Shown piece by piece: positions 1,532-30,094 of a DNA stretch of 32,000 nucleotides. Source of the stretch: Nonlabens ponticola (lineage in GTDB: Bacteria > Bacteroidota > Bacteroidia > Flavobacteriales > Flavobacteriaceae); contig NZ_CP034549.1 of assembly GCF_003966335.1 (NCBI RefSeq), positions 990,001-1,022,000 of the forward strand, written 5' to 3'. The notes beneath the pieces are model-generated. The model ran no database searches. It had not been told where the DNA came from and saw nothing but the letters and a program-made list of their open reading frames with translations. Position 1 is the stretch's first letter. Every line of letters begins with the position of its first letter. A program made the translations under genes and the position numbers.

Positions 1532-1647
1532 TCTTAATATATTTACATCGCTACATTAAGTTGTAGTTATCAAAACTTATCTTCTTTCACACACATTGAT
1601 TGAGTTTTGATAAGTCATAAGGCTTATCGTCATTTAAAAATAACGAT

Positions 1648-6051: not shown

Positions 6052-8172
<2,121 letters not shown>

Positions 8173-8195
8173 AATTCATTTTTAAAATTGATATT

Positions 8196-10136: not shown

Positions 10137-10138
10137 GC

Positions 10139-12484: not shown

Positions 12485-12527
12485 TATTCAATCCAGTAGG
12501 ATTGCCAACCATCTTAAATTTTAAATT

Positions 12528-14369: not shown

Positions 14370-14708
14370 ATGATGCAAAAGACTTATTACGATCCCAAAG
14401 ACCTTAAGAAATTTGGCAAAATCACAGAATGGAGCGAAGAATTAGGAACAAAGTTCTTTGACTACTATGGTAAAGTATTTGAAGAAGGTGCGCTCACAGC
14501 CCGTGAGAAATCATTGATCGCATTAGCAGTGTCACACACGGTTCACTGTCCGTACTGTATCGATGCCTACACTAGTGATGGATTAAAAAGAGGTATCACC
14601 AAGGAAGAAATGATGGAAGCCGTGCACGTCGCAGGAGCCATACAAGGTGGTGCCACACTAGTTCATGGCGTTCAAATGATGAACAAAGTCAATAAGCTTG
14701 AGATGTGA
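14370..14708 (+). CDS. AhpD/carboxymuconolactone-decarboxylase-like protein of the type associated with ArsS radical SAM enzymes (peroxidase-like)
   Basis: MMQKTYYDPKDLKKFGKI...REKSLIALAVSHTVHCPYCIDAYT...VHVAGAIQGGATLVHGVQM carries the AhpD-type CxxC motif. Size and sequence resemble the family I know as the arsenosugar-biosynthesis-associated peroxidase-like protein. I prefer the start at ATG 14370 over the GTG at 14337 in the ORF track. Confidence 0.8.
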   Translation: MMQKTYYDPKDLKKFGKITEWSEELGTKFFDYYGKVFEEGALTAREKSLIALAVSHTVHCPYCIDAYTSDGLKRGITKEEMMEAVHVAGAIQGGATLVHGVQMMNKVNKLEM

Positions 14709-14748
14709 GCAATTTGTTAGCGTTGTAAACAACGCTTTACAAATGCTC

Positions 14749-15028
14749 ATCCCAAAAAGTCGCGCAACGACTTATTTGGGATCTAGATTTTATTACCGCA
14801 GTAATCTGTATGAAGTAGCGAGCTAGAACCTACCACAGACTTCTGCCTAAGCAGAAACGTAGAAGTTGCTATCCCAGAAAATCGCGAGAGCGATTTATCT
14901 GGGATCTACCTAGTCGCTATCCCAAAAATCTGTAAAATGTACTGAGCTACAACCTACCACAAACCTCTGCCTAAGCAGAAACGTAGAACTGCTATCCTGG
15001 AAAATTGCGAGAGCGACTTGCCTAAGAT
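14749..15028. repeat. Composite intergenic repeat: hairpin modules plus a roughly 90-bp unit duplicated with a 124-bp period
   Basis: Unit 1 (14815-14906) and unit 2 (14939-15028) align along their length. Both read GTA(G/C)(C/T)GAGCTA(G/C)AACCTACCACA(G/A)AC(T/C)TCTGCCTAAGCAGAAACGTAGAA..GCTATCC(C/T)(A/G)GAAAAT(C/T)GCGAGAGCGA... A related hairpin, ATCCCAAAAAGTCG-CGCAA-CGACTTATTTGGGAT, lies at 14749-14782, and a half copy lies at 14916-14930. Confidence 0.85.
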
Positions 15029-15167
15029 TTAAAATACTGATTTCTATCACCATAGATAAGAGTGATCACGTTGTGAAACTTTTGTTAACTATTTATCGTA
15101 AATATGCATTACGATTGGCGTGCTCATAAAGGATGAGCCGTCATTTATTAAACCGAGAAATGCCTGT

Positions 15168-16241
15168 ATGAGTGTTGCTGTGAATACCAAGAAGAGTCTC
15201 AAAAAAAGAGATTCTGACCTAGCTAATATTAACAAACAAATGGAGATCCTTAACGGTGAACCATTTTCAGATGGCGAGTTGCCGTCTTTTGCCATGAAGA
15301 TCAAGGAGACTAATCAGTTTCCGCTCAGGCCTAAAAAACTCGAGATACTGCAGGTCAATGTAGGTTATATGTGTAATCAGGTTTGCGCGCACTGTCATGT
15401 GGATGCTGGACCTGACCGCAAAGAGATCATGACGCGCGACACCATGCAGCAAATTCTGGACGTGATCAAAACTACCGAGGCACACACGCTTGACCTGACA
15501 GGTGGCGCACCAGAGATGAATCCTGATTTCCGATGGTTTGTAGAAGAAGCTGCCAAAGCTGGTATCCAAGACTTCATCGTGCGATCCAACTTGACGATCA
15601 TACGCGCCAATCCTAAATATTACGATCTGCCTGATTTTTTCAAGAAGCACAATATCCACGTGGTATCATCCATGCCACACTGGACTAAGGGTAAGACTGA
15701 CAAACAACGCGGCGATGGTGTTTTTGACAAGTCCATCAAGGCACTTCAAGAATTGAACGATCGCGGTTACGGTATGCCTGACAGCGATCTACGTTTAGAT
15801 CTAGTTTATAATCCTAGTGGTGCTTACCTGCCAGGCGATCAGGCCAGTATGGAAAAGGAAATGAAAGCTGCTTTGTTAGAAGATTTCGGCATCCAGTTTC
15901 ACAATCTATTTGCTATCACCAATCTGCCTATTGCTAGATTTTTGGATTATCTAGTGGCTAGCGAAAACTATGAAGATTATATGTATGCGCTTGTAGAGGC
16001 CTACAATCCTGCTGCGGTTGCTAACGTGATGTGTACCAATACCATTTCCATTTCCTGGGATGGCTGGTTGTACGACTGCGACTTTAACCAGATGTTGGAT
16101 TTAAAAGTTGATAACAAGATCCAGCACATCAGCGATTACAACGAGGATTTATTGAATGATCGTAAGATCCAGATATCTCAACACTGCTATGGTTGTACCG
16201 CTGGTGCAGGTAGTAGTTGTCAAGGTGTCGTTGCAGAGTAA
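15168..16241 (+). CDS. arsS: Radical SAM/Cys-rich-domain enzyme, ArsS-like (arsenosugar-biosynthesis-type radical SAM family)
   Basis: It has the CNQVCAHCHVDAGP CxxxCxxC radical SAM motif. The C-terminal Cys-rich region (WLYDCDFNQ...HCYGCTAGAGSSCQG) is characteristic of the radical SAM/Cys-rich family. I prefer the ATG at 15168 (MSVAVNTKKSLKKRDSDL...) to the GTG at 15120, which sits in the repeat-rich spacer. Confidence 0.8.
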   Translation: MSVAVNTKKSLKKRDSDLANINKQMEILNGEPFSDGELPSFAMKIKETNQFPLRPKKLEILQVNVGYMCNQVCAHCHVDAGPDRKEIMTRDTMQQILDVIKTTEAHTLDLTGGAPEMNPDFRWFVEEAAKAGIQDFIVRSNLTIIRANPKYYDLPDFFKKHNIHVVSSMPHWTKGKTDKQRGDGVFDKSIKALQELNDRGYGMPDSDLRLDLVYNPSGAYLPGDQASMEKEMKAALLEDFGIQFHNLFAITNLPIARFLDYLVASENYEDYMYALVEAYNPAAVANVMCTNTISISWDGWLYDCDFNQMLDLKVDNKIQHISDYNEDLLNDRKIQISQHCYGCTAGAGSSCQGVVAE

Positions 16242-16260
16242 ATAAGAAATTATGGATTAC

Positions 16261-16274
16261 GCTTTCGCGGAAGC
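16261..16274. repeat. Iterated palindrome, one-mismatch variant GCTTTCGCGGAAGC
   Basis: Carries the conserved TTAC...GGA flanks. It lies 20 nt after the radical SAM stop, inside the short ATG-initiated frame that is in phase with the downstream transferase-like gene. Confidence 0.8.
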
Positions 16275-16368
16275 GGACTTGAAACCAATTATATAACAAG
16301 TAACCATCAACAACCAACCATCAAATACAGCCATACTAGTCTTCGCGCAAACCGCGCAGGCTGATGCT

Positions 16369-16995
16369 GTGCATAAATCTATCGCATATCATCAAAAGTT
16401 GATGGCAGAATTGAATGGTCATGTCCTCAAGACTGTCCGAAAGAGCGGTCTGGACTATTTTCATATCACCGAAAGCGATCAACATGGAGACAGTTTTGGC
16501 GCTCGATTTTCAAATGCTATTCAGAGCGTTTTTGAAAAAGGGTATGAGCAAGTCATTTGTGTTGGTAACGATACGCCACAATTAACAACGCTACACATAT
16601 TTACCGCAGTTGATTCTTTAGCTACAGGTCATGCAGTTAATGGTCCGTCGATCGATGGTGGTTATTATCTCATGGGAATTCATGCTCATGAATTCGACGC
16701 TGGTTCTTTTGAGAGCTTGCCATGGCAAACTGAAAATCTTGCTACCGCTTATCGAGAGCTTCAAGAAGATATAGGTATCATCTCTGACAATCTAGAACCG
16801 TTGATGGATCTCGATTCTGCAAGCGATTTGTATCAGTTTGTAAAAGGGAAAGATTCACGTAAATGTCTGATCAATATCATCAAGCATATTTTTGATGAGA
16901 ATTCACAGGTGTATGCAACGCAATCAGATCGTATATATCAAATCGTTTTCTCAAGTCCTTTAAACAAAGGATCGCCTACTGCGCTAGCAGCATAG
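16369..16995 (+). CDS. DUF2064 / TIGR04282-like glycosyltransferase-fold protein (radical SAM-associated); 5' end unresolved
   Basis: Motifs such as GDSFGARFSNAIQSVFEKGYEQVICVGNDTPQL and GPSIDGGYYLMG match my memory of this family. The GTG at 16369 is the first canonical start. Conserved-looking N-terminal sequence (TAILVFAQTAQADAV) is encoded in frame upstream of it (see findings). Confidence 0.7.
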   Translation: MHKSIAYHQKLMAELNGHVLKTVRKSGLDYFHITESDQHGDSFGARFSNAIQSVFEKGYEQVICVGNDTPQLTTLHIFTAVDSLATGHAVNGPSIDGGYYLMGIHAHEFDAGSFESLPWQTENLATAYRELQEDIGIISDNLEPLMDLDSASDLYQFVKGKDSRKCLINIIKHIFDENSQVYATQSDRIYQIVFSSPLNKGSPTALAA

Positions 16996-17045
16996 AAATC
17001 TGGCTTATTCTAGCCAACCCATTTTATCAATCTTATTAATTTTTC

Positions 17046-20000
17046 ATGAAGAGAATTTCTCTACTCATGCTTCTCTTGTGCTGTGTCACAGGTTGGGCAC
17101 AAATTACCATTACTGGAACAGTCAAGGACGCTGGCGGCGAGTCCATACCTTTTGTCAATATTGTCGAGCGCGGCACTAGTAACGGAACTACATCATCCAT
17201 AGATGGAACCTACTCGATCACTGTTCAACAAAATGCGGTATTGTCATTTTCATATATAGGTTACCAACCGCAAAATTTATCCGTAGGAAGTGATAGTCGC
17301 GTACTGGATGTCACATTGCTAGAAGGTGATTCTTTGAACGAAGTCGTAGTAACAGCTTTAGGAGTCAAGCGTCAAGAACGCGAGTTAGGCTATGCCGTTC
17401 AAACGCTGGAAGAGCAAGATATTCAAGAAGTAAAAGCGGTCAACCTTATCGATAACATCGCTGGTAAAGTGGCTGGTGTGACGGTCACGCCAGGTGCAAC
17501 AGGCGTTGGTTCTTCTTCTAAAATCACCATACGCGGTGAGGCCAGTTTTTCAAATAATAATCCGCTGTTTATTGTGGATGGGACGCCAGTAAATAACAAC
17601 ACAGTATTCAATTTTACTAATGAAGCCGCAGCAGGTTTCCAGGAAGTAGATTTTGGGAATGGTGCAGGCGAGATCAATCAAGATGACATAGCCAGTATTT
17701 CAGTGCTTAAAGGTCCAGCCGCAGCAGCCCTTTATGGTACAAGAGCAGCTAATGGCGCAGTGATCATAGAAACCAAAAGTGGTGGCAGGCAACCTGGATT
17801 GGGTATTTCATACAACACCAGCTTTTTTGTGGATACGGCTTTCAAATTACCAGAATTCCAAAACGAATACGGTCAAGGAAACAGTGGCCAGTTTGAATAT
17901 GTCGATGGTCTTGGCGGTGGTATCAACGACAATATTTCCTATTCTTGGGGTCCGCGGTTGGATCAAGGATTGCTCATCCCGCAATTTGATAGTCCTGTGA
18001 CCTTGCCAGATGGTACGGTCGTGCGCGGTGGCGATACCTCACTTTATAGTGGCTTGCCTATCACGGCGACACCTTTTGTGAGTAATCCAGATAATCTCAA
18101 GAACTTCTATGAGACTGGTTACACGGCAATCAATAATATCGCTGTGAGCAATGGTTTTAACGGTGGCGACTATCGTTTAAGCTTTACAGATTTACGCAGC
18201 GAAAGCATCATTCCTGGTGTGAATCTGGATCGACAGACTATTTCAACAAAACTGAACTTTACACCCAATACTAAGACGCGCATCAACGCCAGTATCAACT
18301 ATGTCAACAGCGGCTCAGACAATAGGCCGTCTAACGGTTACGGTAGTGAGAACGTGAACTATTCATTGGTCGCTTGGGGTCCACGATCACTGAATATTGA
18401 AAATTTACGTGACTACTGGCAGCCAGGTCTGGAAGGCGTGCAGCAGTACTCGTTTAACTATACCTTTTTTGACAATCCGTATTTTATACTGCGTGAGAAC
18501 CGCAACAGTTTTGGCCGTGATCGTGTTTTTGGGAATGTTTCTTTGACCAGAGAATTGACGCCAGAACTTACCGCGACCGTGCGTACAGGAATGGATTACA
18601 GCAATGAGAAGCGACGCTTTTTACGCAACTATTCTACCAACCGATTCCGCAATGGTGCTTATGCTGAGCATGATGTTTTTTATCGTGAGGTCAACACAGA
18701 CTTTTTGCTCAATTACAAGAAGCAATTTGGTGATATCAGTCTTGACGCTAGTGCTGGTGCAAATCGTTTGTCACAATCTGCCCAGACAACGCAAATTCAG
18801 ACTACTAGTCTTGCGCAGCCTGGTATTTTCTCATTGAACAATGCAGCGAGCCCGATTGAGACCTTTGGCTTTACTTCTAGGAAAAGGATTAATAGTGTTT
18901 ACGCTTTCGCGAAAGCGGGATACAAAAATGTCTTATATCTAGATATTACAGCCCGTAACGACTGGTCCAGCGCCCTTGCAACGCCGTTCACTGCAGATAA
19001 CACCTCATTTTTCTACCCATCGGTATCCACCAGTTTTATCTTCAGCAACGTGGTAGATTTACCGCGAGTAGTGGATTTTGCAAAAATACGAGCCAGTTAT
19101 GCGCAGGTAGGAAACGACACAGACCCATACCAGACGCAAGGGACATTCTTGTCGCAAACGCCCGTAAACTCGCAGCCTACCTTTACCAATCAGGACTTTA
19201 TTCCCAATGCCAACTTGAGACCAGAAACAACATCCAGTGTGGAGTTAGGCTTTGACTTGAGATTATTGAAACAGCGTTTGAACATTGACTTTACCTACTA
19301 CAATGCTGTGACTGACGATCAAATCTTATCGTTACCTATCGCCCTTTCTTCAGGATTTAGCCAGCAAGTTGTGAATGGTGGATCGGTAAGAAATCAAGGT
19401 GTGGAAATCATATTGAACGCGATACCCGTACAAACTGCAGATTTTCAATGGAGCACAACGGCAAATTTTGCCAGTAGCAGAGCTGTCGTTGAAGACCTGC
19501 CACAAGATGAAGGGCGATTGACGCTAGGATTTTCAAGAGTGTACAATAGCGCAGACCAGACGGTTTTCCATCAAGTAGAAGAAGGTGGCAGAGTAGGCGA
19601 CTTGTACGGTACAGGATATCTGCGCAATGAAGACGGCGATTTTATCCTGACCGATGAAGGACGCTTTATTGCAGATCCTGAATTGAGAAAATTAGGTAAT
19701 TACAATGCAGACTTCACGCTGGGATTGACCAACTCATTCCGTTACAAAAACTTTGATGCGTCCTTTTTACTAGACTGGAGACAAGGCGGCATTCTGGTGT
19801 CTAGAACTCTTTCATTAGGCGCCGTTGGTGGCCAGCTGGAAGAAACAGCAAATCGACCAGAAGAAGGCATCGTTGCTGATGGTGTTGTGAATACTGGAAC
19901 TGCAGATAATCCAGTTTTTACCAGAAACACCACAGCAGTAACTGCCGAAAGTTACTACCGTCAATTCTACGACCGCAACCATGAGGAAAACAATGTATAT

Positions 20001-20258
20001 GATGCCAGTTATTTAAAGCTGCGTCAGTTTTCTGTAGGCTACAATTTTGATTTGAAAAAAGGTGCGTTAGGTCTTTTCACTGAAGGCGCGACCATGCGTG
20101 TTTCCTTGATAGGTAGAAACCTATTTGCTTTTAGTGAGATACCACATTTTGATCCAGAACAACTTGCCGTGCAAGGTCAAGGCTTTGTAAACGGAGTTGA
20201 AGACATGTCGTATGCATCAACCCGTAGCATAGGAATCAAGGCTGGAATTAATTTTTAG
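17046..20258 (+). CDS. SusC/RagA-family TonB-dependent outer-membrane receptor
   Basis: 1070 aa. A signal peptide and carboxypeptidase-regulatory-like domain (ITITGTVKDAGGESIPFVNIVERGTSNGTTSSIDGTYSI) are followed by a plug (LNEVVVTALGVKRQ...) and a large barrel. A SusD-like gene follows. Confidence 0.92.
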   Translation: MKRISLLMLLLCCVTGWAQITITGTVKDAGGESIPFVNIVERGTSNGTTSSIDGTYSITVQQNAVLSFSYIGYQPQNLSVGSDSRVLDVTLLEGDSLNEVVVTALGVKRQERELGYAVQTLEEQDIQEVKAVNLIDNIAGKVAGVTVTPGATGVGSSSKITIRGEASFSNNNPLFIVDGTPVNNNTVFNFTNEAAAGFQEVDFGNGAGEINQDDIASISVLKGPAAAALYGTRAANGAVIIETKSGGRQPGLGISYNTSFFVDTAFKLPEFQNEYGQGNSGQFEYVDGLGGGINDNISYSWGPRLDQGLLIPQFDSPVTLPDGTVVRGGDTSLYSGLPITATPFVSNPDNLKNFYETGYTAINNIAVSNGFNGGDYRLSFTDLRSESIIPGVNLDRQTISTKLNFTPNTKTRINASINYVNSGSDNRPSNGYGSENVNYSLVAWGPRSLNIENLRDYWQPGLEGVQQYSFNYTFFDNPYFILRENRNSFGRDRVFGNVSLTRELTPELTATVRTGMDYSNEKRRFLRNYSTNRFRNGAYAEHDVFYREVNTDFLLNYKKQFGDISLDASAGANRLSQSAQTTQIQTTSLAQPGIFSLNNAASPIETFGFTSRKRINSVYAFAKAGYKNVLYLDITARNDWSSALATPFTADNTSFFYPSVSTSFIFSNVVDLPRVVDFAKIRASYAQVGNDTDPYQTQGTFLSQTPVNSQPTFTNQDFIPNANLRPETTSSVELGFDLRLLKQRLNIDFTYYNAVTDDQILSLPIALSSGFSQQVVNGGSVRNQGVEIILNAIPVQTADFQWSTTANFASSRAVVEDLPQDEGRLTLGFSRVYNSADQTVFHQVEEGGRVGDLYGTGYLRNEDGDFILTDEGRFIADPELRKLGNYNADFTLGLTNSFRYKNFDASFLLDWRQGGILVSRTLSLGAVGGQLEETANRPEEGIVADGVVNTGTADNPVFTRNTTAVTAESYYRQFYDRNHEENNVYDASYLKLRQFSVGYNFDLKKGALGLFTEGATMRVSLIGRNLFAFSEIPHFDPEQLAVQGQGFVNGVEDMSYASTRSIGIKAGINF
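18903..18916. repeat. Iterated palindrome, copy inside the SusC-like barrel
   Basis: Perfect copy covering codons 620-624, A-F-A-K-A (SVYAFAKAGYK). Flank is TTTAC...GG. Confidence 0.95.
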
Positions 20259-20329
20259 AACTAGGAATTATAAGTAAAAGTGAGGACTGAGGCACTCGAA
20301 GTCCGACTCAATAACTTGAAACAAATAAA

Positions 20330-21784
20330 ATGAAACACATATATAAATACAATATAATACTGCTTGCCATCATTAGCGCCATTGCAGTGTCCTGTACGGA
20401 TGATTTTGAAGAAATCAATACTAATCCCAACGCACCTGTAAGCGTGCAGCCTAGTTTGCTGCTGCGTCAAGTGATTTATGATTATGGGGAGCAAATGTCT
20501 TATGAGGGTTTTGTGGCTGGTGGCTTGCTGAGTCAGCATTTGACGGCACTGGATTTTAATCTATTCGATAGGCATGCATTGAAGAGCCCGCAATTGGGCG
20601 GTGATCCATGGCCTATTTTTTACAGAAACTTGAGAGACAATGAGATCATTCTAGAGCAAGCGCAAACTACTCCAGCCTTTGCGGTTTATGAAGGTCCATC
20701 GCTCATATTCAAAGCTTACATGACTGCTGCGCTGACTGATATTTTTGGTGACGTCCCTTACTTTGAAGCGTTCCGTGGATTGGATGGTACTGTGCAAGCA
20801 CCTTATGATTTGCAGGAAGACATATACTTACAGCCTGGCGGAATCTTAGACAACCTCGATCAAGGAATTGCCGCAATCGAGAATTATGAAGGATCCATAC
20901 CGCTTGAAGGTGACGTTTTGTTCAACGGTGATCTGGATGGTTGGGTGCGATTTGCAAACAGTTTGAAGATCAAAGCACTGATGCGTATTTCAAATAAGGT
21001 AGATGTAAGCGACCAGCTGCAGGAACTGTTTGATGAGGGAAATTACATCAGCGATAATTCTGAAAATGCAGTATTTAACTTTACTGATGGCGAGCCTAAT
21101 AACTTCCGTTTGGCGCGATTGAGAGCTGGTGACTTCAATAACTTTGTAATGAGCGAGACCATGGAAGAAGTGCTGGACGATCAAGACGACGCTCGTGTAG
21201 AAGTGCTTTTTAGACCTAGAGCCAACAACGATGACGGCGATGACTATGAAGGTTTGATTAATGGTATAGACGCATCTTCAACATCGGTCAGTCTGGCAGA
21301 TTTCTCGCTGGCTGGAACTATTTTCCGTGAGAATACAGGTATGCTGGACGCCAACTACATGACCGCATGGGAAACCAACTTCCTACTTGCAGAGGCCGCT
21401 CAACGTGACCTGATTGAAGCTGATGCCGAAGATCTCTATGAAACCGCTGTAGAGCAAGCCTATGAATACTGGAATACGGAATTGCCAGAGGATTACCTCG
21501 ATGAAGAAGGCGCTTTTGATGATAACGACAACGACCCAATCGAGCAAATCATTACTCAAAAATGGATCGCCAGCATGATCAATGGTTATGAGGGTTGGAT
21601 CGAGTGGCGACGTACTGGATTTCCAGAGCTTAAAAATGTATCGGCTAGTTTAAACAACGGCATCATACCAGTAAGAATGCCTTATCCAACTGAAGAAGCA
21701 GCACTCAACGCAGACAATTACAATGTAGCAGCTAGCGCCACTGATGGTAATAGTATTAATGCACCTGTTTGGTGGGATGAATAG
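20330..21784 (+). CDS. SusD/RagB-family nutrient-binding outer-membrane lipoprotein
   Basis: 484 aa with a lipoprotein signal (AIAVSC-TDDFEEINTNPNAP), the typical N-terminus of the shorter SusD-like subfamily. It lies immediately downstream of the SusC-like gene. Confidence 0.85.
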   Translation: MKHIYKYNIILLAIISAIAVSCTDDFEEINTNPNAPVSVQPSLLLRQVIYDYGEQMSYEGFVAGGLLSQHLTALDFNLFDRHALKSPQLGGDPWPIFYRNLRDNEIILEQAQTTPAFAVYEGPSLIFKAYMTAALTDIFGDVPYFEAFRGLDGTVQAPYDLQEDIYLQPGGILDNLDQGIAAIENYEGSIPLEGDVLFNGDLDGWVRFANSLKIKALMRISNKVDVSDQLQELFDEGNYISDNSENAVFNFTDGEPNNFRLARLRAGDFNNFVMSETMEEVLDDQDDARVEVLFRPRANNDDGDDYEGLINGIDASSTSVSLADFSLAGTIFRENTGMLDANYMTAWETNFLLAEAAQRDLIEADAEDLYETAVEQAYEYWNTELPEDYLDEEGAFDDNDNDPIEQIITQKWIASMINGYEGWIEWRRTGFPELKNVSASLNNGIIPVRMPYPTEEAALNADNYNVAASATDGNSINAPVWWDE

Positions 21785-21785
21785 G

Positions 21786-21827
21786 GATTAACGATTAATG
21801 ATTTGAGATTTTTGATTGAAGATTAAG
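21786..21827. repeat. Six tandem heptads GATTNNN with exact 7-nt period
   Basis: GATTAAC GATTAAT GATTTGA GATTTTT GATTGAA GATTAAG. GATT occurs at 21786, 21793, 21800, 21807, 21814 and 21821. The tract starts 2 nt after the susD-like stop. Confidence 0.8.
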
Positions 21828-21838
21828 AATGCCTGGTT

Positions 21839-21954
21839 GAGCGTAGTCGAGACCTACATTAAAAGTCAAAAGCTGATAATAAACTTCATACGTGTCAAAA
21901 TATATAGGTGCAACAATAATATGATTAACATCGAGATAGCTCTCGACTGCGCTC
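21839..21954. repeat. 14-bp inverted repeat (GAGCGTAGTCGAGA / TCTCGACTGCGCTC) enclosing 88 bp of AT-rich DNA
   Basis: Arms lie at 21839-21852 and 21941-21954, with 13/14 positions complementary. It sits in the 211-bp spacer between the susD-like and SSS transporter genes. Confidence 0.6.
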
Positions 21955-21995
21955 GAGCAAGCATATTCTTGTAAACGAAAATTAATAACAAACAC

Positions 21996-23345
21996 TTGGA
22001 TTTTCTAACCCAAACATCAACCTTACAGTGGTTGCTCATCATCGCGAGTAGTGTGATCTTTTTCATACTGGCACCCTATGCCAAAGATGTAGCTACGTTC
22101 TTCAAGGCGCAGCATCGCGGTAAAGCTCCCAGCATGATGATGTTGACGGGTAGCTTGATTATCTCATGGATTTTTGCCAAAAGCATTACCAATGCAGCCA
22201 ATCTGGGATTAGAATTTGGTCTGGTAGGTGGCGTGGCCTATGCTGGATATTATTTGTCATTTGCGGTAGCTGGCGTTATTATTTATCAGCTGCGCACCAG
22301 TGGTGGTTATAATAGCATACATCATTTTCTGACTGATAAATTCGATAAACAAGCGGTGGCGCTTTTTTCTATTTTGATCAGCTTCAGATTGTTTAATGAA
22401 GTCTGGTCTAACACTATGGTTATTGGGACCTATTTTGGCGACATAGGTAGCACACCTTACTACGCAGCTATATTAGTATTCACAGTTCTCACACTTGCCT
22501 ACACATTGAAAGGTGGTCTGAGCAGTTCAATATTTACTGATGTGATCCAGATGGTGCTATTCTCCGTATTATTGGTAATCATTCTGAGTGTTATTTTCTC
22601 AAAACCTGAAATCTCGACCACCAGCGTATTGAATAGCGGTACCTGGTCAATGGAGCTTGGATTGAACTTGTTTTTTGCAGCTATTCTTCAAAGTTTCAGC
22701 TACCCATTTCACGATCCAGTATTGACAGATCGCGGATTTATCACCAGCCCAAAAGTCATGCGTAAAAGCTTTTTATGGGCAGCACTATTGGGTGGAGTTT
22801 GTATTGTGTTATTCAGCTTGGTTGGCGTGTATGCACAGCAAGCAGGTTTGCAAGGTCAGGCCGCTGTTGAGGTCGCAAAAAAGCTAGGCGTTGTCCTGCT
22901 GCTCATTATCAATTTCATCATGATTACCAGTGCAGCCAGCACGCTAGACAGCACATTCAGCAGTTTTTCAAAATTGCTGACGATTGATTTGAATCTGGGA
23001 AAGACGGTCACTTTTGGACGTGTTATGATGGTTTTGGTCGCCGTCTTAGGAACCATTCCTGTATTCCTTGATGCCGAGATCCTAAGCGCCACCACCATCA
23101 GCGGTACCATGGTTATTGGGCTTACTCCAGTCTTCCTGCTATGGAAAATGAACGCACCTAAAATCAGCTATTTTTTATCGGTCATTTGCGGTCTGGTTTT
23201 TGGAATTCTACTCGTGTTTCAATGGTATCCACAAGAGCTTATCTTTACCACTGGAAAGTACGCAGATTTACTATGGCTCAACGTTTACGGCATCGCTATC
23301 AGTTTCCTATTATTCCTCATACCATCATGGATAAAAACATCATAG
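21996..23345 (+). CDS. Sodium:solute symporter (SSS/SLC5)-family transporter, substrate unknown
   Basis: 449 aa and polytopic. It has an SSS-type signature, YTLKGGLSSSIFTDVIQMV (GG...TD..Q). TTG start. The first in-frame ATG would delete the first TM helix. Confidence 0.75.
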   Translation: MDFLTQTSTLQWLLIIASSVIFFILAPYAKDVATFFKAQHRGKAPSMMMLTGSLIISWIFAKSITNAANLGLEFGLVGGVAYAGYYLSFAVAGVIIYQLRTSGGYNSIHHFLTDKFDKQAVALFSILISFRLFNEVWSNTMVIGTYFGDIGSTPYYAAILVFTVLTLAYTLKGGLSSSIFTDVIQMVLFSVLLVIILSVIFSKPEISTTSVLNSGTWSMELGLNLFFAAILQSFSYPFHDPVLTDRGFITSPKVMRKSFLWAALLGGVCIVLFSLVGVYAQQAGLQGQAAVEVAKKLGVVLLLIINFIMITSAASTLDSTFSSFSKLLTIDLNLGKTVTFGRVMMVLVAVLGTIPVFLDAEILSATTISGTMVIGLTPVFLLWKMNAPKISYFLSVICGLVFGILLVFQWYPQELIFTTGKYADLLWLNVYGIAISFLLFLIPSWIKTS

Positions 23346-24172
23346 ACTTAGGTAAAAAGAGCGGTAAGATGCTCCTTTTTGGTGGTGTTTATAGTAATCT
23401 ACAAGCGTTGGAGAGCCTAATAGATCTTGCCCAAAAAGAGGGCATTGCACCAGAAAACTGCCTTTGCACAGGTGATATTATCGGTTACTGCGGTCAACCT
23501 CAAGAGACGCTCGAGTTGTTCAAAAATTGGGGTGTGCACAGCATTTTGGGCAATGTAGAAATCCAGTTGCGCGATGACGAGGATCACTGCGGCTGCGATT
23601 TTACCACAGGCTCTCGATGTGATAATTTTAGTGAGATCTGGTACGCTTTCGCGAAAGCAAACTTACCAACAGCATCCAAACAATATTTTCAATCCTTATC
23701 AGACCACATACTTTTTGAGTTCGCTGGTAAGAAGGTAGGCGTCGTACATGGCAGCTATGATCACGTGTCGCAGTTCATATTCAATTCAACGAATTGGTAT
23801 GAAAAGCAAGCTAGCCTTGATGCTCTCAACGCAGACGTAGTTGTTGCTGGCCACTGCGGTTTGCCTTTTCATGATTCTCAAAATGGTCAATTATGGCTCA
23901 ATCCAGGTGTCATAGGTATGCCTGCCAATGATGGGACGACAAGAACCTGGGCGATGATTCTAGATGATGCTGATGGTTTAAATTTTGAGCACGTTACTTT
24001 GCAGTATGACTTTAATACAGCTGCTGATTTTATGAAAAAGCATCACCTACCGCAGGAATATGCGCACACCCTGAAAACTGGTATTTGGGATAATATGGAA
24101 ATTTTACCTGATTCAGAAAAGTTGGAGCAAGGCAAGACCATCGAACTTGATGTTCAAAAAGCTGTAGTTTGA
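23327..24172 (+). CDS. Metallophosphoesterase-fold protein with degenerate metal-binding motifs and an extra Cys cluster
   Basis: MDKNIIDLGKKSGKMLLFGGVYSNLQALE...TGDIIGYCGQP...GNVE...HCGCDFTTGSRC...VHGS...GHCGLPF...NPGVIGMPANDG. The order and spacing match calcineurin-like phosphoesterase motifs. I prefer the ATG at 23327, which overlaps the transporter end by 19 nt, over the ORF-track start at 23186, which lies inside the transporter. Confidence 0.7.
   Translation: MDKNIIDLGKKSGKMLLFGGVYSNLQALESLIDLAQKEGIAPENCLCTGDIIGYCGQPQETLELFKNWGVHSILGNVEIQLRDDEDHCGCDFTTGSRCDNFSEIWYAFAKANLPTASKQYFQSLSDHILFEFAGKKVGVVHGSYDHVSQFIFNSTNWYEKQASLDALNADVVVAGHCGLPFHDSQNGQLWLNPGVIGMPANDGTTRTWAMILDDADGLNFEHVTLQYDFNTAADFMKKHHLPQEYAHTLKTGIWDNMEILPDSEKLEQGKTIELDVQKAVV
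23645..23658. repeat. Iterated palindrome, copy inside the phosphoesterase-fold gene
   Basis: Perfect copy covering codons 107-111, A-F-A-K-A (IWYAFAKANLP). Confidence 0.95.
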
Positions 24173-24663
24173 TGAGAAGTCTTTTAGTTCTTACAGTGAT
24201 GTTGATATGTTCCGCTTTCGCGAAAGCGCAATCCATAAAATCAGTACTTGAAAAGTATAACCAGCACAGTGTTCCCTACATCACAGTTCAGGAAGTCAAA
24301 ATGGATTATGAAAACTACGTAATCCTTGATACGCGCAAAAAAGAAGAGTTTGAGGTAAGTCACCTGCCAGGTGCTTATTGGGTGGACGCTAATTTTGATC
24401 AGAATAATTTACCAAAATCGTTGAGAGATAATCCTAAGAAGCTTGTAATCGTTTACTGCACGATAGGTGTGCGTAGTGAGGATTTTGGCGAGCGACTTGT
24501 TGAGGCTGGTTACAAGAATGTGAGAAACTTATACGGTAGCATTTTCTCTTGGAAAGATGCTGGATATGAATTGGTTGACGACTTAGGTCAACCGACTGAT
24601 AGCGTACATACTTATTCAAAAACTTGGAGCAAATACCTCAAAACTGGAATTCCTATAAATTAG
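24172..24663 (+). CDS. Secreted rhodanese-like (sulfurtransferase) domain protein
   Basis: Signal peptide MRSLLVLTVMLICSAFA-KAQS. The rhodanese active-site loop is VIVYCTIGVRSE, followed by NLYGSIFSWKDAGYEL. The ATG overlaps the upstream stop (TGATG). Confidence 0.85.
   Translation: MRSLLVLTVMLICSAFAKAQSIKSVLEKYNQHSVPYITVQEVKMDYENYVILDTRKKEEFEVSHLPGAYWVDANFDQNNLPKSLRDNPKKLVIVYCTIGVRSEDFGERLVEAGYKNVRNLYGSIFSWKDAGYELVDDLGQPTDSVHTYSKTWSKYLKTGIPIN
24214..24227. repeat. Iterated palindrome, copy in the rhodanese signal peptide
   Basis: Perfect copy covering codons 15-19, A-F-A-K-A (CSAFAKAQSI). Flank is TCC...GC. Confidence 0.95.
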
Positions 24664-24667
24664 TCTT

Positions 24668-24853
24668 ATGAACGATCTCAAAATCCCCAAGTGGTTTTGG
24701 CAACTTATGATTCTGTGTTGTCTAGTTGGCGCTGGTTTTGCTGGATATTACCTGATAATTGATAAAAACGAAGAAACAGGATACGTATGGTACGTGTTCC
24801 TGTTTCTTATGGCTTTATGGTATGCATTGCGACAAATGCGCAAGGCAGATTAA
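24668..24853 (+). CDS. Small membrane protein (61 aa, two predicted TM helices)
   Basis: WFWQLMILCCLVGAGFAGYYLII and YVWYVFLFLMALWYAL are hydrophobic helices. It starts 4 nt after the rhodanese stop. No family was recognised. Confidence 0.5.
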   Translation: MNDLKIPKWFWQLMILCCLVGAGFAGYYLIIDKNEETGYVWYVFLFLMALWYALRQMRKAD

Positions 24854-26365: not shown

Positions 26366-26669
26366 GTACTGTGATCTTAGATTCCAAAAGTACAGGCATA
26401 TCAAAGTGACAAAAACTCTATTAACATGTTGTTTGTAGTACAAAAACAGCTCTTAGTCGATAAAACTGTTTTACTAATCACATTAAACAATTGGCGTACA
26501 GCGTCTTACAATATTCACGCTAGGTAGAAGAGTGATATGATCCAGATTTGCATTTGTGATTTCCTTAACTCACTTAATCTATGAAAAGTGCTTTTAAACT
26601 TTTCAATGAATGGTTGTTAAAAGTAAATGGAAGATAAAAGTGAACAAAAGCATGCATTTGGTACTATTG

Positions 26670-28028: not shown

Positions 28029-28218
28029 GGAATCATCTTCAAACGCTATCGCACTATTATAAAATTGAAAAGGTAAAGAAAGACTGTGCAAGAAATACAT
28101 CTGTTTTAGCATTTGTGTTTCTAGTAAAAGAAACGAGGTTGCAAGCAGTCAAATCAATCCTCAATGATGCAAATGTAAGCATAATCGCCACCTATAAAGT
28201 TTCGTCTAATAGATTTTC

Positions 28219-29481: not shown

Positions 29482-29856
29482 AAATCATCGTATTGGTTCA
29501 TCTATACTAACGGTGTTTTATCTAACTAGGTTTCAATAACATAGGTTAATGTGTTATAATTAACAGGTGTAATCACACATATTGTGTTTAATCCTGTAAT
29601 TGAGCTCTTTGTCGGTTATTAAATTTTATAATACGTTAAGGCGTAACAAATGTGGAGAAATGCATGGATGTGTGTTAAATAAAGCAAAACTTTTAATACT
29701 AAAACATATTAGTTATACTATATCTTTGATCTAAATAGCTTTATTTCAATTAGTTGCGTTAATCCTACTAATTTACTAGGAATTAAACTAAAAATAATTT
29801 GGTCACGTCATTTTTGTTTTTGAATATTTGTACTCGACGTTCATAACCATATTGAA

Positions 29857-29971: not shown

Positions 29972-30094
29972 TCATGTAAGTAGGTTATACTACCACACAG
30001 TTTCTTTTTTGATGTTATCTCACCACACTGGTGCGGCAACTCTGTATTTCAAACCGATTATGGACATTATTTATTGATGTTTAAAAGAAACAAC

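What the first reader, a model, noticed from the sequence alone, without database searches (positions are those of the whole stretch)
14370..24853. ArsS-type radical SAM cluster fused with a hydrolase-less SusC/SusD pair, an SSS transporter, a degenerate phosphoesterase and a secreted rhodanese
Eight same-strand genes run from 14370 to 24853: AhpD-like CxxC protein, radical SAM/Cys-rich enzyme, DUF2064/TIGR04282-like transferase, SusC-like, SusD-like, SSS transporter, metallophosphoesterase-fold protein and secreted rhodanese, followed by a small membrane protein.

From family knowledge, the first three form the conserved triad first catalogued as radical SAM/selenodomain-associated and later linked to arsenosugar biosynthesis. 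In that pathway ArsS adds a 5'-deoxyadenosyl group to dimethylarsenite. Several expected partners are missing from the window: an ArsM-type methyltransferase, the second (TIGR04283-like) transferase and a nucleoside phosphorylase.

Instead, the triad is followed after a 50-bp spacer by a SusC/SusD pair. No glycoside hydrolase, sulfatase or regulator accompanies the pair, which is atypical for a PUL. Next come an inner-membrane symporter and two sulfur/metalloid-chemistry-type proteins with overlapping start/stop codons (19-nt and 1-nt overlaps).

One inference is a self-contained route: outer-membrane capture (SusCD), inner-membrane uptake (SSS), then radical-SAM-based modification of a sulfur-, selenium- or arsenic-bearing small molecule or glycoside. 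To my knowledge this combination is not a described system.
Basis: partly seen in the sequence, partly recalled or inferred. Interest (0 to 1): 0.72.

Follow-up and report, generated by a model that had tools for sequence, protein, structure and literature searches.

The report
Arsenosugar gene cluster with built-in uptake module
A marine flavobacterium carries a cut-down arsenosugar (radical-SAM ArsS) gene cluster with an outer-membrane SusC/SusD importer, an inner-membrane permease and a cysteine-rich phosphoesterase-fold protein built into it; this block recurs across many genera and suggests that these bacteria take up an arsenic-related compound on purpose.

Summary
The gene string is real. 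The window is Nonlabens ponticola. ArsS, its AhpD-like partner and the rhodanese pass NCBI's curated cut-offs. The DUF2064 protein does not (91 vs 134 bits) and is a distinct short paralog, T4282s.

The neighbourhood is not strain-specific. A five-gene block, T4282s-SusC-SusD-SSS-MPE, sits inside or beside ArsS clusters in at least ten Flavobacteriaceae genera, in two gene orders. In 34 well-flanked MPE-anchored metagenome loci, SSS is present in 34, SusC and SusD in 33 each, and ArsS in 31.

The "degenerate phosphoesterase" is the strongest new lead. It belongs to a large family with no curated model. Half of the dinuclear metal site is replaced and five or six near-invariant cysteines are added. 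In other organisms it is fused to ArsM, to the AhpD-like protein, to DUF2064 or to a radical SAM domain, and it often lies next to a transporter.

The rhodanese belongs to the canonical cluster, not to the add-on. ArsM, the nucleoside phosphorylase and TIGR04283 are absent from the window.

My best reading is TonB-dependent uptake of a scarce arsenical, probably methylated. Thiol-based capture or reduction by MPE and AhpD would follow, then ArsS adenosylation. The gene linkage is shown here. The substrate and the chemistry are inferred. No paper in the searchable library describes this arrangement.

The parts
14373..14708 (+). AhpD-like CxxC protein (HCPYC), the arsenosugar-associated 'peroxidase-like' partner of ArsS.
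   Evidence: TIGR04169 193.5 bits against cut-off 120; PF02627. The 111-aa product exactly matches NCBI AZQ43535.1. It lies next to ArsS in 78 of 80 genome loci.
14709..15167 (+). Unusually long AhpD-ArsS spacer with a hairpin at the AhpD stop and about 2.5 tandem copies of a 123-nt hairpin-rich unit (14744-15031). Role unknown.
   Evidence: the repeat finder families D1, D2 and I1. RNA fold -136.4 kcal/mol, z = -7.1. No Rfam match. Part of the unit recurs in the same spacer of Nonlabens-like contigs L088 and L091.
15168..16241 (+). ArsS, the radical SAM enzyme of arsenosugar biosynthesis (Cys form, not the selenoprotein form).
   Evidence: TIGR04167 433.3 bits against 300; PF04055 plus DUF3641; CX3CX2C motif. 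100% identical to N. ponticola ArsS and 82-97% identical across Flavobacteriaceae genera.
16306..16995 (+). T4282s, a divergent DUF2064/TIGR04282-like paralog and first gene of the accessory block. Its start codon is non-canonical (ATC 16306 in GenBank); the first canonical start, GTG 16369, would remove the conserved first strand.
   Evidence: TIGR04282 91.7 bits, below cut-off 134. The alignment shows loss of the 'RNPELGKAKTRLA' loop and a 13-aa segment, and a roughly 45-aa C-terminal extension ending in NKGSP. Start-codon variants were checked. It lies directly upstream of SusC in 48 of 49 well-covered loci.
17046..20258 (+). SusC/RagA-type TonB-dependent outer-membrane transporter.
   Evidence: TIGR04056 594 bits; TIGR04057 signature; Plug and CarboxypepD_reg domains. 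Orthologs are 67-88% identical across genera and always sit in the block.
20330..21784 (+). SusD-family surface lipoprotein (lipobox ...AVSC).
   Evidence: PF12771 286 bits and PF12741 185.7 bits. Orthologs are 63-82% identical and always sit in the block.
21996..23345 (+). Divergent sodium:solute-symporter-like inner-membrane permease, translationally coupled to the next gene.
   Evidence: PF00474 27.7 bits (gathering score 22.8); TIGR00813 36.9 bits, below 184. Best solved relative is CHT1, E = 2e-4. It lies directly upstream of MPE in 63 of 63 loci, with a 16-19 nt overlap in 79 of 90.
23327..24172 (+). Cysteine-rich pseudo-metallophosphoesterase. It has the SapH/3rqz-like fold. The M1 metal ligands and the catalytic His are replaced, the M2 ligands are kept, and there are invariant Cys at 45, 55, 88, 90, 98 and 177.
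   Evidence: Alignment A1. PDB profile search: 3rqz E = 1.3e-14, aligning 'SDVHAN' with 'FGGVYSN'. AF2 pLDDT 88.7. Foldseek: 1nnw, 3qfm and 3rqz with TM 0.66-0.82. Family signature over 85 representatives. Fusions to ArsM, AhpD-like, DUF2064 and radical SAM.
24172..24663 (+). Periplasmic single-domain rhodanese (signal peptide; active-site loop CTIGVR). A canonical arsenosugar-cluster member.
   Evidence: NF045521 184.6 bits against 145. Present in 43 of 80 ArsS loci, usually immediately after ArsS.
24668..24853 (+). 61-aa predicted membrane protein, a Nonlabens-specific tail gene of the string.
   Evidence: ORF. NCBI calls it a hypothetical protein. Homologs at 43-48% identity occur only in Nonlabens-like loci L081, L086, L087, L089 and L147.

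Best explanation
The window holds a compact variant of the Flavobacteriaceae arsenosugar (ArsS) gene cluster. It has no ArsM in the window. A conserved accessory block is inserted between ArsS and the periplasmic rhodanese. The block is a short DUF2064 paralog, SusC, SusD, a divergent SSS permease and a cysteine-rich pseudo-metallophosphoesterase.

Proposed mechanism, step by step:
1. (Inferred) SusC/SusD capture a scarce external solute and move it across the outer membrane with TonB energy.
2. (Inferred) The SSS permease carries it into the cytoplasm.
3. (Inferred) The MPE-fold protein binds it. This protein's phosphate-ester site has lost one metal site and the catalytic His and has gained a ring of cysteines. 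Together with the AhpD-like CxxC protein it converts the solute to, or holds it in, the trivalent thiol-bound state.
4. (Inferred here from ArsS family membership; the reaction itself is established for ArsS in the literature cited.) ArsS transfers a 5'-deoxyadenosyl group from SAM to the arsenic centre.
5. (Unknown) The DUF2064 paralog acts on the resulting nucleoside-like product or on the imported compound.

The most likely solute is a methylated arsenic oxyanion, dimethylarsinate or methylarsonate, or a related organoarsenical. That would let ArsS work without a local ArsM.

The genetic linkage of all these genes is shown here. The substrate, the direction of flux and the chemistry are inferred.
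For: Linkage:
- The block occurs with ArsS in Nonlabens, Maribacter, Cochleicola, Marinirhabdus, Winogradskyella, Algibacter, Polaribacter and Cellulophaga. MPE homologs are also named from Gillisia, Aquimarina and Flavobacterium.
- It appears in two gene orders that both keep the linkage.
- Among MPE-anchored metagenome loci with adequate flanks, SSS is present in 34/34, SusC 33/34, SusD 33/34, T4282s 33/34 and ArsS 31/34.
- In Polaribacter sp. BM10 the block sits between ArsS and ArsM.

MPE belongs to the arsenic pathway:
- It forms a single ORF with the AhpD-like protein in 16 of 23 Maribacter-order loci, and in P0200 and P0383 (TIGR04169 144.9 bits).
- It is fused to arsenosugar-type ArsM in P0405 (NF038099 465 bits against 400) and to DUF2064 in P0413.
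- It is fused to radical SAM domains in P0407, P0438 and P0499.
- It lies directly upstream of ArsS-PNP-GT2 in the unrelated contigs L170 and L171.

Transporter coupling recurs with different transporter types:
- SSS in Flavobacteriaceae, with a conserved 16-19 nt overlap.
- An MFS gene overlapping an MPE::radical-SAM gene in L172 and L173.
- PhnD-type (PF12974 phosphonate-binding) ABC importers beside the MPE-ArsM fusion in L166 and L167, and near the DUF2064-MPE fusion in L168.

Remodelled active site:
- Motif I D/H becomes G/Y.
- GNH becomes GNV in Flavobacteriaceae and GNC in most other members.
- GHxH becomes GHxG.
- D50, N76, H141 and H176 are kept.
- C47, C55, C88, C90 and C98 are near-invariant over 85 representatives.

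Compact systems usually lack ArsM: 2 of 12 Maribacter-order loci have it. No named Nonlabens genome appears among the top 120 ArsM hits to a Nonlabens-MAG ArsM query.

From my own knowledge: phosphatase folds have been recruited for arsenic-oxyanion reduction before, in the LMW-PTP-type ArsC and the Cdc25/rhodanese-type Acr2.
Against: - No experiment or expression data bear on this.
- SusCD systems normally import glycans or other solutes much larger than dimethylarsinate, so the outer-membrane step fits an arsenosugar-sized or non-arsenic ligand at least as well.
- Active uptake of a toxic element has no established benefit.
- About half of the window-order loci also carry ArsM (11 of 27), so the block does not simply replace ArsM.
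- Three well-flanked loci (L093, L123, L148) have the block without ArsS within 10 kb.
- The cysteine cluster could instead bind an Fe-S cluster or zinc.
- The absence of ArsM from the whole N. ponticola genome was not tested directly.
- In the window, long structured spacers (459 and 211 nt) leave room for separate transcription units.
- The DUF2064 gene lacks a canonical start codon.
Confidence: 0.5

Rival explanations
1. The block imports and processes a non-arsenic co-substrate of the pathway, such as the acceptor to which the arsenoribosyl group is attached or a nucleoside or sugar-phosphate. Alternatively it is a phosphate-starvation scavenging unit for organic phosphorus that is co-regulated with arsenic handling, because arsenate enters cells when phosphate is scarce.
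For: - SusCD pairs are typical carbohydrate importers, and the DUF2064 and GT2 partners are glycosyltransferase-like.
- The MPE fold is a phosphoesterase fold whose nearest solved relative is the Ap4A hydrolase SapH.
- PhnD-type phosphonate-binding ABC importers lie near MPE fusions.
- Flavobacteria are reported to specialise in organic-phosphorus mineralisation (PMC8115612, listed; only its title and abstract were read).
Against: - The MPE protein has lost the M1 metal ligands and the catalytic His of motif III, so ordinary phosphoester hydrolysis is unlikely.
- It is fused to ArsM, the AhpD-like protein and radical SAM domains in organisms with no SusCD. This ties it to the arsenic chemistry itself rather than to nutrient scavenging.
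- The compact systems lack ArsM, PNP and TIGR04283, so an acceptor-supply role would have nothing to supply.
Confidence: 0.22
2. The block is a salvage or catabolic route for algal arsenosugars (dimethylarsinoyl ribosides, roughly 330-480 Da). SusCD and SSS import them. The MPE-fold protein and the DUF2064 paralog dismantle them, for example the glycerophosphoryl form. The released dimethylarsenic is then re-adenosylated by ArsS.
For: - The size and glycoside nature of arsenosugars fit a SusCD ligand.
- SusD-family proteins paired with TonB-dependent transporters for a single sugar acid, with no hydrolase, are known (NanO/NanU, PMC3969230).
- The hosts are algae-associated marine Flavobacteriaceae (record titles).
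- In most window-order loci the block sits inside the full arsenosugar cluster with PNP and glycosyltransferases.
Against: - No C-As lyase, glycosidase or other recognisable catabolic enzyme is in the block.
- The MPE active site is not that of a working phosphodiesterase.
- Breaking down an arsenosugar only to rebuild it is hard to rationalise.
- MPE-family members occur with ArsS or ArsM in contexts without any outer-membrane importer.
Confidence: 0.15
3. The juxtaposition is not functional. The SusC/SusD pair belongs to the neighbouring maltodextrin/starch utilisation cluster (LacI, MFS, GH65, GH97, three GH13) or to an unrelated regulon, and it merely landed next to ArsS in this strain.
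For: - A complete alpha-glucan degradation gene set lies directly upstream on the same strand, with no SusCD of its own in the window.
- The same adjacency is seen in N. dokdonensis and in a Nonlabens MAG.
Against: - Outside Nonlabens the GH genes are absent, while SusC-SusD-SSS-MPE stays with ArsS in both gene orders.
- SusC and SusD orthologs at 63-88% identity are found only inside this block in the fetched loci. Other SusC/SusD hits are at most 36% identical.
- A 414-nt gap holding an opposite-strand ORF separates GH13 from the AhpD-like gene.
Confidence: 0.03
4. In these compact clusters without a local ArsM, the ArsS homolog acts on a non-arsenic nucleophile, a sulfur or selenium compound. 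The block would then supply that compound, in line with the reader's sulfur/selenium option.
For: - A rhodanese and a CxxC protein accompany ArsS.
- The ArsS and AhpD-like families include selenoprotein forms, according to their NCBIfam names.
- Most compact clusters lack ArsM.
Against: - ArsS in the compact clusters is 80-97% identical to ArsS encoded next to arsenosugar-type ArsM, which argues for one conserved reaction.
- The MPE family is fused to NF038099-type ArsM.
- The block lies between ArsS and ArsM in Polaribacter sp. BM10 and in several metagenome loci.
Confidence: 0.07

Closest known systems
Cyanobacterial arsenosugar pathway (ArsM plus the radical SAM enzyme ArsS; Cheng et al. 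2021 Angew Chem, as cited in PMC12159101)
   Same: ArsS here passes the equivalog model TIGR04167 (433 bits against 300) with the CX3CX2C motif and the DUF3641 domain. The AhpD-like partner is TIGR04169.
   Different: The window has no ArsM, nucleoside phosphorylase or TIGR04283 glycosyltransferase. An outer-membrane importer, a permease and a Cys-rich MPE-fold protein are embedded in the cluster. I found none of these in the published pathway descriptions I could search.
Canonical Flavobacteriaceae arsenosugar cluster as captured by NCBIfam models (TIGR04169, TIGR04167, NF045521 rhodanese, TIGR04282, PNP, NF038099 ArsM, DUF547, TIGR04283)
   Same: The AhpD-like protein, ArsS and the rhodanese are orthologs of the canonical members.
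   Different: The window keeps only these three. It replaces the rest with T4282s-SusC-SusD-SSS-MPE. The DUF2064 protein is a separate paralog that scores below the TIGR04282 cut-off.
SusCD-type uptake of a small defined solute without hydrolases (NanO/NanU sialic-acid system of Tannerella, PMC3969230)
   Same: A TonB-dependent SusC-like barrel pairs with a SusD-family lipoprotein. No glycoside hydrolase is in the conserved unit, and an inner-membrane permease is encoded alongside.
   Different: There is no sequence-level relationship beyond family membership. The ligand here is unknown and the genetic partners are arsenic-pathway genes, not sugar catabolism.
Phosphatase-fold arsenate reductases (LMW-PTP-type ArsC; Cdc25/rhodanese-type Acr2); recalled from my own knowledge
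   Same: A phosphate-ester-binding fold loses its original catalytic set-up and gains cysteines, working with a thiol-disulfide partner. Here the MPE fold gains 5-6 Cys and is often fused to a CxxC protein.
   Different: The fold is different (calcineurin-like MPE). One metal site appears to be retained. No reductase activity has been shown. This is an analogy, not homology.
SapH (3qfm), 3rqz and 1nnw/2gju metallophosphoesterases
   Same: They are the best sequence and structure relatives: 3rqz E = 1.3e-14, and Foldseek TM 0.66-0.82. They share the same C-terminal helical tail.
   Different: Those proteins keep the full dinuclear-site motifs (for example 'SDVHAN' and GNHD in 3rqz). This family has FGGVYSN, GNV/CE and GHxG, plus a CGCDF...C insertion.

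Membership tests
Arsenosugar (ArsS) biosynthesis gene cluster | Radical SAM protein above the TIGR04167 (ArsS) cut-off, with the CX3CX2C motif and the DUF3641 C-terminal domain | tested here: met
   433.3 bits against 300; PF12345 183 bits; motif CNQVCAHC.
Arsenosugar (ArsS) biosynthesis gene cluster | Adjacent TIGR04169 AhpD-like 'peroxidase-like' partner | tested here: met
   193.5 bits against 120. Adjacent to ArsS in 78 of 80 related loci.
Arsenosugar (ArsS) biosynthesis gene cluster | TIGR04282-family DUF2064 protein above the curated cut-off | tested here: not met
   90.6-91.7 bits against 134, matching only profile positions 65/70-189. A canonical member scores 224 bits. The window protein is a distinct paralog lacking the N-terminal loop.
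Arsenosugar (ArsS) biosynthesis gene cluster | Arsenosugar-type arsenite methyltransferase ArsM (NF038099) in the cluster | tested here: not met
   No tblastn hit better than E = 0.67 in the 32-kb window. Whole-genome absence could not be tested.
Arsenosugar (ArsS) biosynthesis gene cluster | Purine nucleoside phosphorylase and TIGR04283 glycosyltransferase in the cluster | tested here: not met
   PNP has no tblastn hit even at E <= 10, and the best TIGR04283 hit has E = 2.2. Both are present in most canonical loci.
Arsenosugar (ArsS) biosynthesis gene cluster | NF045521 rhodanese | tested here: met
   184.6 bits against 145.
Arsenosugar (ArsS) biosynthesis gene cluster | Production of arsenosugars or 5'-deoxy-5'-dimethylarsinoyl-adenosine | not testable with these tools
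   Needs arsenic speciation (LC-ICP-MS) on cultures or enzyme assays.
Polysaccharide utilization locus (PUL) | Adjacent SusC/SusD gene pair | tested here: met
   TIGR04056 594 bits; PF12771 286 bits; the genes are 71 nt apart.
Polysaccharide utilization locus (PUL) | Carbohydrate-active enzymes that are conserved partners of the pair | tested here: not met
   The upstream GH13/GH65/GH97 genes accompany the pair only in Nonlabens. In other genera the conserved partners are T4282s, SSS, MPE, AhpD and ArsS.
Polysaccharide utilization locus (PUL) | Dedicated regulator (hybrid two-component, SusR-like or ECF/anti-sigma) in the conserved unit | tested here: not met
   The string 14373-24853 contains none. 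SusC has no STN domain. No regulator is conserved with the block.
Calcineurin-like metallophosphoesterases (active enzymes) | MPE fold | tested here: met
   PF12850 43.6 bits. AF2 pLDDT 88.7. Foldseek probability 1.00 to 1nnw, 3qfm and 3rqz.
Calcineurin-like metallophosphoesterases (active enzymes) | Complete dinuclear-site motifs: DxH, GD, GNH(D/E), H, GHxH | tested here: not met
   DxH becomes GGVY. GNH becomes GNV. GHxH becomes GHCG. GD, N76, H141 and H176 are kept.
   No hit for the window protein or for four family representatives, even at E <= 5. The only hits were weak YfcE/PRK09453 matches.
Sodium:solute symporter family (SSS/SLC5) | Match above curated family thresholds | tested here: inconclusive
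   PF00474 27.7 bits against 22.8, but residues 53-202 only. TIGR00813 36.9 bits against 184. CHT1 E = 2e-4. Orthologs in L084 and L085 have no precomputed Pfam hit.

The most novel reading that the evidence does not exclude
Marine Flavobacteriaceae deliberately scavenge dissolved methylated arsenic, or another organoarsenical, with a dedicated TonB-dependent SusCD plus SSS route. They feed it to ArsS through a previously unrecognised class of arsenic-handling protein. That protein has a metallophosphoesterase fold in which one metal site is replaced by a cysteine cluster. It acts with the AhpD-like CxxC protein as a reductase or chaperone for pentavalent methylarsenicals. This would make arsenic a sought-after building block for an arsenic-containing metabolite or lipid, rather than only a poison to be detoxified. 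It would also fill an unassigned step of the arsenosugar pathway that is shared by many phyla.
Probability: 0.3. Interest if true: 0.85.

Novelty: new variant of a known kind. Interest (0 to 1): 0.68.

Why it matters
Arsenosugars are among the major organic arsenic species in the sea and in seafood, yet only two steps of their biosynthesis (ArsM and ArsS) are assigned to enzymes.

This locus and its relatives add two testable pieces. The first is a widespread Cys-rich MPE-fold family whose gene fusions tie it to ArsM, ArsS, DUF2064 and the AhpD-like protein. That makes it a candidate for a missing step or a hand-off factor. The second is a dedicated import route embedded in the cluster, which would mean that heterotrophic bacteria take up arsenic species released by phytoplankton.

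That would change how arsenic cycling between algae and bacteria is modelled. It would also give the first substrate class other than glycans, peptides or vitamins for a marine SusCD system. Cultured strains carry the locus, including N. ponticola, N. dokdonensis, Polaribacter sp. BM10, Cellulophaga tyrosinoxydans and Maribacter spp., so the idea can be tested directly.

Tried and rejected
- **TIGR04168 for the phosphoesterase.** No match even at E <= 5.
- **Selenocysteine or a hidden gene in the AhpD-ArsS gap.** The gap holds tandem hairpin repeats, not coding sequence. There is no Rfam family.
- **SusCD as part of the upstream starch cluster.** Rejected by comparative genomics.
- **Rhodanese as a Cdc25/Acr2-type arsenate reductase.** The active-site loop is CTIGVR (CX4R), the six-residue sulfurtransferase type, not HCX5R (sequence; motif rule from my own knowledge).
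- **Sigma-70 promoter and terminator scans.** Promoter-like counts are at background, 28 against 24.9 +/- 4.9, so they are uninformative. The Bacteroidetes -7 motif TAnnTTTG occurs once upstream of the AhpD-like gene (14189) and in none of the internal spacers. This is weak evidence and I did not rely on it.
- **Literature searches.** Searches for ArsS with SusC, with Flavobacteria or with metallophosphoesterase, and for the TIGR identifiers, found nothing relevant.
- **ArsM elsewhere in N. ponticola.** Only an indirect test was possible. No named Nonlabens genome appears among the top 120 hits to a Nonlabens-MAG ArsM. This is not proof of absence.
- **Contexts of two MPE::radical-SAM fusions (L174, L175).** Uninformative.
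- **Organism names for distant MPE-family members.** None on record.

Full report
**1. What is in the sequence**

The window comes from Nonlabens ponticola: its ArsS, MPE, SusC, SusD, SSS and rhodanese products match that species' NCBI proteins exactly.

Curated HMMs place three proteins above their cut-offs:
- the AhpD-like protein in TIGR04169, 193.5 bits against 120;
- the radical SAM protein in TIGR04167 (ArsS), 433.3 bits against 300;
- the rhodanese in NF045521, 184.6 bits against 145.

SusC (TIGR04056, 594 bits) and SusD (PF12771, 286 bits) are unambiguous. The permease is a very divergent SSS-like protein: PF00474 gives 27.7 bits on residues 53-202 only, and TIGR00813 falls far below its cut-off. 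Its best solved relative is the choline transporter CHT1, at only E = 2e-4.

The DUF2064 protein reaches only about 91 bits against the TIGR04282 cut-off of 134, and it matches only the C-terminal two thirds of the profile.

In addition there are two long gaps, 459 nt between AhpD and ArsS and 211 nt between SusD and SSS. No ArsM, nucleoside phosphorylase, TIGR04283, DUF547 or OlsE-like gene exists anywhere in the 32 kb.

Directly upstream on the same strand lies a LacI-MFS-HAD-GH65-GH97-3xGH13 maltodextrin cluster.

**2. The canonical cluster, for comparison**

I fetched 80 ArsS loci, one per GTDB species, and clustered their ORFs. I then annotated cluster representatives. The usual Flavobacteriaceae arrangement is:

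AhpD-like, ArsS, rhodanese, TIGR04282 (224 bits), purine nucleoside phosphorylase (NF006054), arsenosugar-type ArsM (NF038099, 573 bits), an optional OlsE-like hydroxylase, DUF547, TIGR04283.

So the rhodanese is a normal cluster member, present in 43 of 80 loci and usually right after ArsS. It is not part of an add-on.

**3. The add-on is a conserved five-gene block**

In tblastn tables the block is T4282s-SusC-SusD-SSS-MPE. Among the 80 ArsS-anchored genome loci, 13 carry at least part of it. Eleven have T4282s and SusC: one Nonlabens MAG, three Maribacter, Cochleicola, Marinirhabdus, three Winogradskyella, Algibacter pacificus and one uncultured Flavobacteriaceae. Two more have SSS-MPE only: Oceanihabitans (L039) and an uncultured Flavobacteriaceae (L058).

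Gene-context look-ups added N. dokdonensis, Cellulophaga tyrosinoxydans and Polaribacter sp. BM10. MPE homologs are also named from Gillisia, Aquimarina and Flavobacterium.

Among the 52 ArsS loci with full flanks, 10 (19%) carry SSS-MPE and 9 carry the whole block.

I then anchored on MPE instead, using 80 metagenome loci:
- SSS lies directly upstream in 63 of 63 loci with enough upstream sequence.
- Among 34 well-flanked loci, SSS is present in 34, SusC, SusD and T4282s in 33 each, and ArsS in 31.

The SSS stop overlaps the MPE start by 16 or 19 nt in 79 of 90 loci.

Two gene orders exist:
- The window order is AhpD-ArsS-[block]-rhodanese..., seen in 42 loci.
- The "Maribacter order" is [block]-AhpD-ArsS, seen in 23 loci.

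A rearrangement that keeps the linkage is strong evidence for a functional tie. In Polaribacter sp. BM10 the block sits between ArsS and ArsM.

The upstream GH genes accompany the block only in Nonlabens. The SusCD pair is therefore not part of the starch cluster.

**4. Compact and full versions**

Most window-order loci continue after the block. Of 27 with enough downstream sequence, TIGR04282 and PNP follow in 23 each and ArsM in 11.

Maribacter-order loci are compact. Of 12 with good flanks, 2 have ArsM and none has PNP, TIGR04282 or a rhodanese.

The window, N. dokdonensis (which has no rhodanese) and the Nonlabens-like contigs L089 and L091 have the same compact content in the other order. 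N. spongiae, by contrast, has only AhpD-ArsS-ArsM.

I queried with the ArsM of a Nonlabens MAG whose ArsS is 96% identical to that of N. ponticola. No named Nonlabens genome appeared among the top 120 hits. The ArsS search, by contrast, returned about a dozen named Nonlabens genomes. This suggests, but does not prove, that N. ponticola lacks arsenosugar-type ArsM.

**5. The DUF2064 paralog (T4282s)**

Compared with canonical TIGR04282 proteins, T4282s lacks the N-terminal 'RNPELGKAKTRLA' loop and a 13-residue segment. It also carries a C-terminal extension of about 45 residues ending in NKGSP. In 48 of 49 well-covered loci it is the gene directly before SusC. It also occurs without the transporters in 7 loci.

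In the window its conserved first strand (AILVFA) lies upstream of any ATG, GTG or TTG. GenBank starts the gene at ATC 16306 and RefSeq uses a 197-aa version. The gene may therefore use a rare start codon or may be impaired in this strain.

**6. The MPE-fold protein**

Twenty Flavobacteriaceae orthologs are 57-74% identical to the window protein and have many invariant positions.

Aligned to the solved relative 3rqz (E = 1.3e-14), motif I 'SDVHAN' reads 'FGGVYSN', so the Asp and His are lost. GNHD reads GNVE. GHxH reads GHCG. Meanwhile D50, N76, H141 and H176 are kept. From my knowledge of MPE active sites, the four retained residues are the ligands of one of the two metal sites. The lost residues are the ligands of the other site plus the catalytic His.

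AlphaFold gives a confident MPE fold (pLDDT 88.7), with its lowest confidence in the Cys-rich insertion at residues 81-100. Foldseek returns 1nnw, the Ap4A hydrolase SapH (3qfm) and 3rqz, with TM 0.66-0.82.

A profile search of 1.84 billion representatives finds 172 clusters at E <= 1e-30 and 1,687 at E <= 1e-10. Over 85 full-length representatives the signature holds:

| Position | Residue | Count of 85 |
|---|---|---|
| Motif I, Asp position | G | 72 |
| Motif I, His position | Y | 64 |
| 47 | C | 61 |
| 50 | D | 74 |
| 55 | C | 52 |
| 76 | N | 75 |
| Motif III, His position | C / V | 48 / 17 |
| 88 | C | 72 |
| 90 | C | 73 |
| 98 | C | 61 |
| 141 | H | 81 |
| 176 | H | 74 |
| Motif V, second His position | G | 77 |

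No NCBIfam model covers the family, and TIGR04168 does not match.

**7. Gene fusions and contexts of the MPE family**

- MPE::AhpD-like single ORFs occur in 16 of 23 Maribacter-order loci. They also occur in Cellulophaga tyrosinoxydans (P0200) and in P0383, whose C-terminal part scores 144.9 bits on TIGR04169.
- P0405 is an MPE::ArsM fusion. Its C-terminal part scores 465 bits on NF038099, against a cut-off of 400.
- P0413 is a DUF2064::MPE fusion.
- P0407, P0438, P0499 and P0523 are MPE::radical SAM fusions. Their radical SAM parts are Rv1681-like and ArsS-like but below threshold.
- In the unrelated contigs L170 and L171 a stand-alone MPE lies 10 nt upstream of ArsS-PNP-GT2.
- In L172 and L173 the order is PNP-DUF2064-GT2-MFS-[MPE::radical SAM], and the MFS gene overlaps the fusion gene.
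- The MPE::ArsM gene in L166 and L167 abuts a PhnD-type ABC importer (PF12974 phosphonate-binding). The DUF2064::MPE gene in L168 has a PF12974 binding protein and a permease about 6 kb away.

So the family belongs to the arsenosugar gene set in several lineages. It is repeatedly paired with a transporter, and those transporters are of different types.

**8. How it most likely works**

Shown here:
- the genes form one conserved unit with ArsS;
- MPE is tied to ArsM, AhpD, DUF2064 and radical SAM proteins by fusion;
- the MPE active site is remodelled.

Inferred:
- SusCD and SSS are importers by family, and binding-protein-dependent ABC systems are importers too. The unit therefore takes something up.
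- The compact systems contain ArsS but usually no ArsM. According to the literature cited, ArsS adenosylates an arsenic centre. A pre-methylated arsenical such as dimethylarsinate or methylarsonate is therefore the most economical guess. These are phosphonate-like oxyanions, which would fit a PhnD-type binding protein.
- A phosphate-ester-binding fold that loses a metal site and gains a cysteine pocket, fused to a CxxC protein, resembles the way LMW-PTP and Cdc25 folds became arsenate reductases (my own knowledge). I therefore propose capture or reduction of the pentavalent species and hand-off to ArsS.

The weak points are these. The usual SusCD ligand is much larger than dimethylarsinate. 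There is no known benefit to importing arsenic. About half of the window-order loci also carry ArsM. And the cysteines might instead hold an Fe-S cluster or zinc.

I put 0.85 on the functional linkage and about 0.5 on the mechanism as a whole.

**9. Rivals**

- Import of a non-arsenic co-substrate or a phosphorus-scavenging role: 0.22.
- Salvage of algal arsenosugars: 0.15.
- A sulfur or selenium substrate: 0.07.
- Chance adjacency or membership in the starch cluster: 0.03, contradicted by the comparative data.

**10. Novelty**

Full-text searches found nothing on SusCD, SSS or a metallophosphoesterase in ArsS clusters. The ArsS/ArsM core is known, so I file this as a new variant of a known kind. 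It contains an uncharacterised protein family that may represent a new kind of arsenic-handling protein.

Noticed in passing
window 14706-15167: The AhpD-ArsS spacer is 459 nt, against roughly 0-160 nt in most other genera. It starts with a 21-nt-arm inverted repeat overlapping the AhpD stop codon. It then contains about 2.5 tandem copies of a 123-nt unit made of hairpins. The predicted RNA fold has z = -7.1 and there is no Rfam match. Part of the unit recurs in the same spacer of Nonlabens-like contigs L088 and L091. In N. dokdonensis a 108-aa ORF is called in this spacer. It could be a REP-like element or a regulatory or processing site.
   Followed up: partly
window 16297-16371: The DUF2064 (T4282s) reading frame is open from 16297, but there is no ATG, GTG or TTG before GTG 16369. 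That start would cut off the conserved 'AILVFA' first strand. GenBank uses ATC 16306 (229 aa, AZQ43537.1) and RefSeq a 197-aa version (WP_241234689.1). N. dokdonensis has a normal ATG at the equivalent place.
   Followed up: partly
window 512-13958: A complete maltose/maltodextrin utilisation gene set lies on the + strand: LacI regulator, MFS permease, HAD (beta-phosphoglucomutase-like), GH65, GH97 and three GH13 enzymes. There is no SusC/SusD of its own within the window. The same adjacency to the ArsS string is seen in N. dokdonensis and in a Nonlabens MAG, but not in other genera.
   Followed up: partly
window 28096-28168 (-) and 29855-29971 (+): Two different SAM riboswitch classes lie about 1.7 kb apart. 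One is a SAM-II aptamer (54.9 bits) upstream of metK (26747-28003, - strand). The other is a SAM-I/S-box aptamer (67.2 bits) upstream of a Cys/Met PLP enzyme (30074-31387, + strand). SAM synthetase therefore lies about 2 kb from a cluster whose key enzyme consumes SAM. This is probably coincidence.
   Followed up: no
window 24854-26443 (-) and 28246-29481 (-): Two secreted proteins share a similar N-terminal motif after the signal peptide, 'AQVGI.T..P..SA.L....'. The 529-aa protein has no family hit. The 411-aa protein carries a Peptidase_S74 (endosialidase chaperone) domain. Weak homologs of both appear near ArsS in locus L060. Function unknown.
   Followed up: no
loci L166-L168, L172-L173: Outside Flavobacteriaceae, Cys-rich MPE-family genes are fused to ArsM, DUF2064 or a radical SAM domain and lie near other transporter types. 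These are PhnD-type phosphonate-binding ABC importers and an overlapping MFS gene. Thiol-redox genes (glutaredoxin, pyridine-nucleotide disulfide oxidoreductases) are also nearby.
   Followed up: partly
loci L093, L123, L148: Three long metagenome contigs carry T4282s-SusC-SusD-SSS-MPE with no AhpD or ArsS within 10 kb on either side. In L093 an extra 318-aa ORF lies between SusD and SSS. I did not examine what replaces ArsS there, or whether it is encoded elsewhere.
   Followed up: no
(protein identities across genera): ArsS is 75-97%, the AhpD-like protein 80-99% and ArsM 81-92% identical across different Flavobacteriaceae genera. That is close to housekeeping-gene conservation and unusual for what is regarded as a detoxification pathway.
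   Followed up: no
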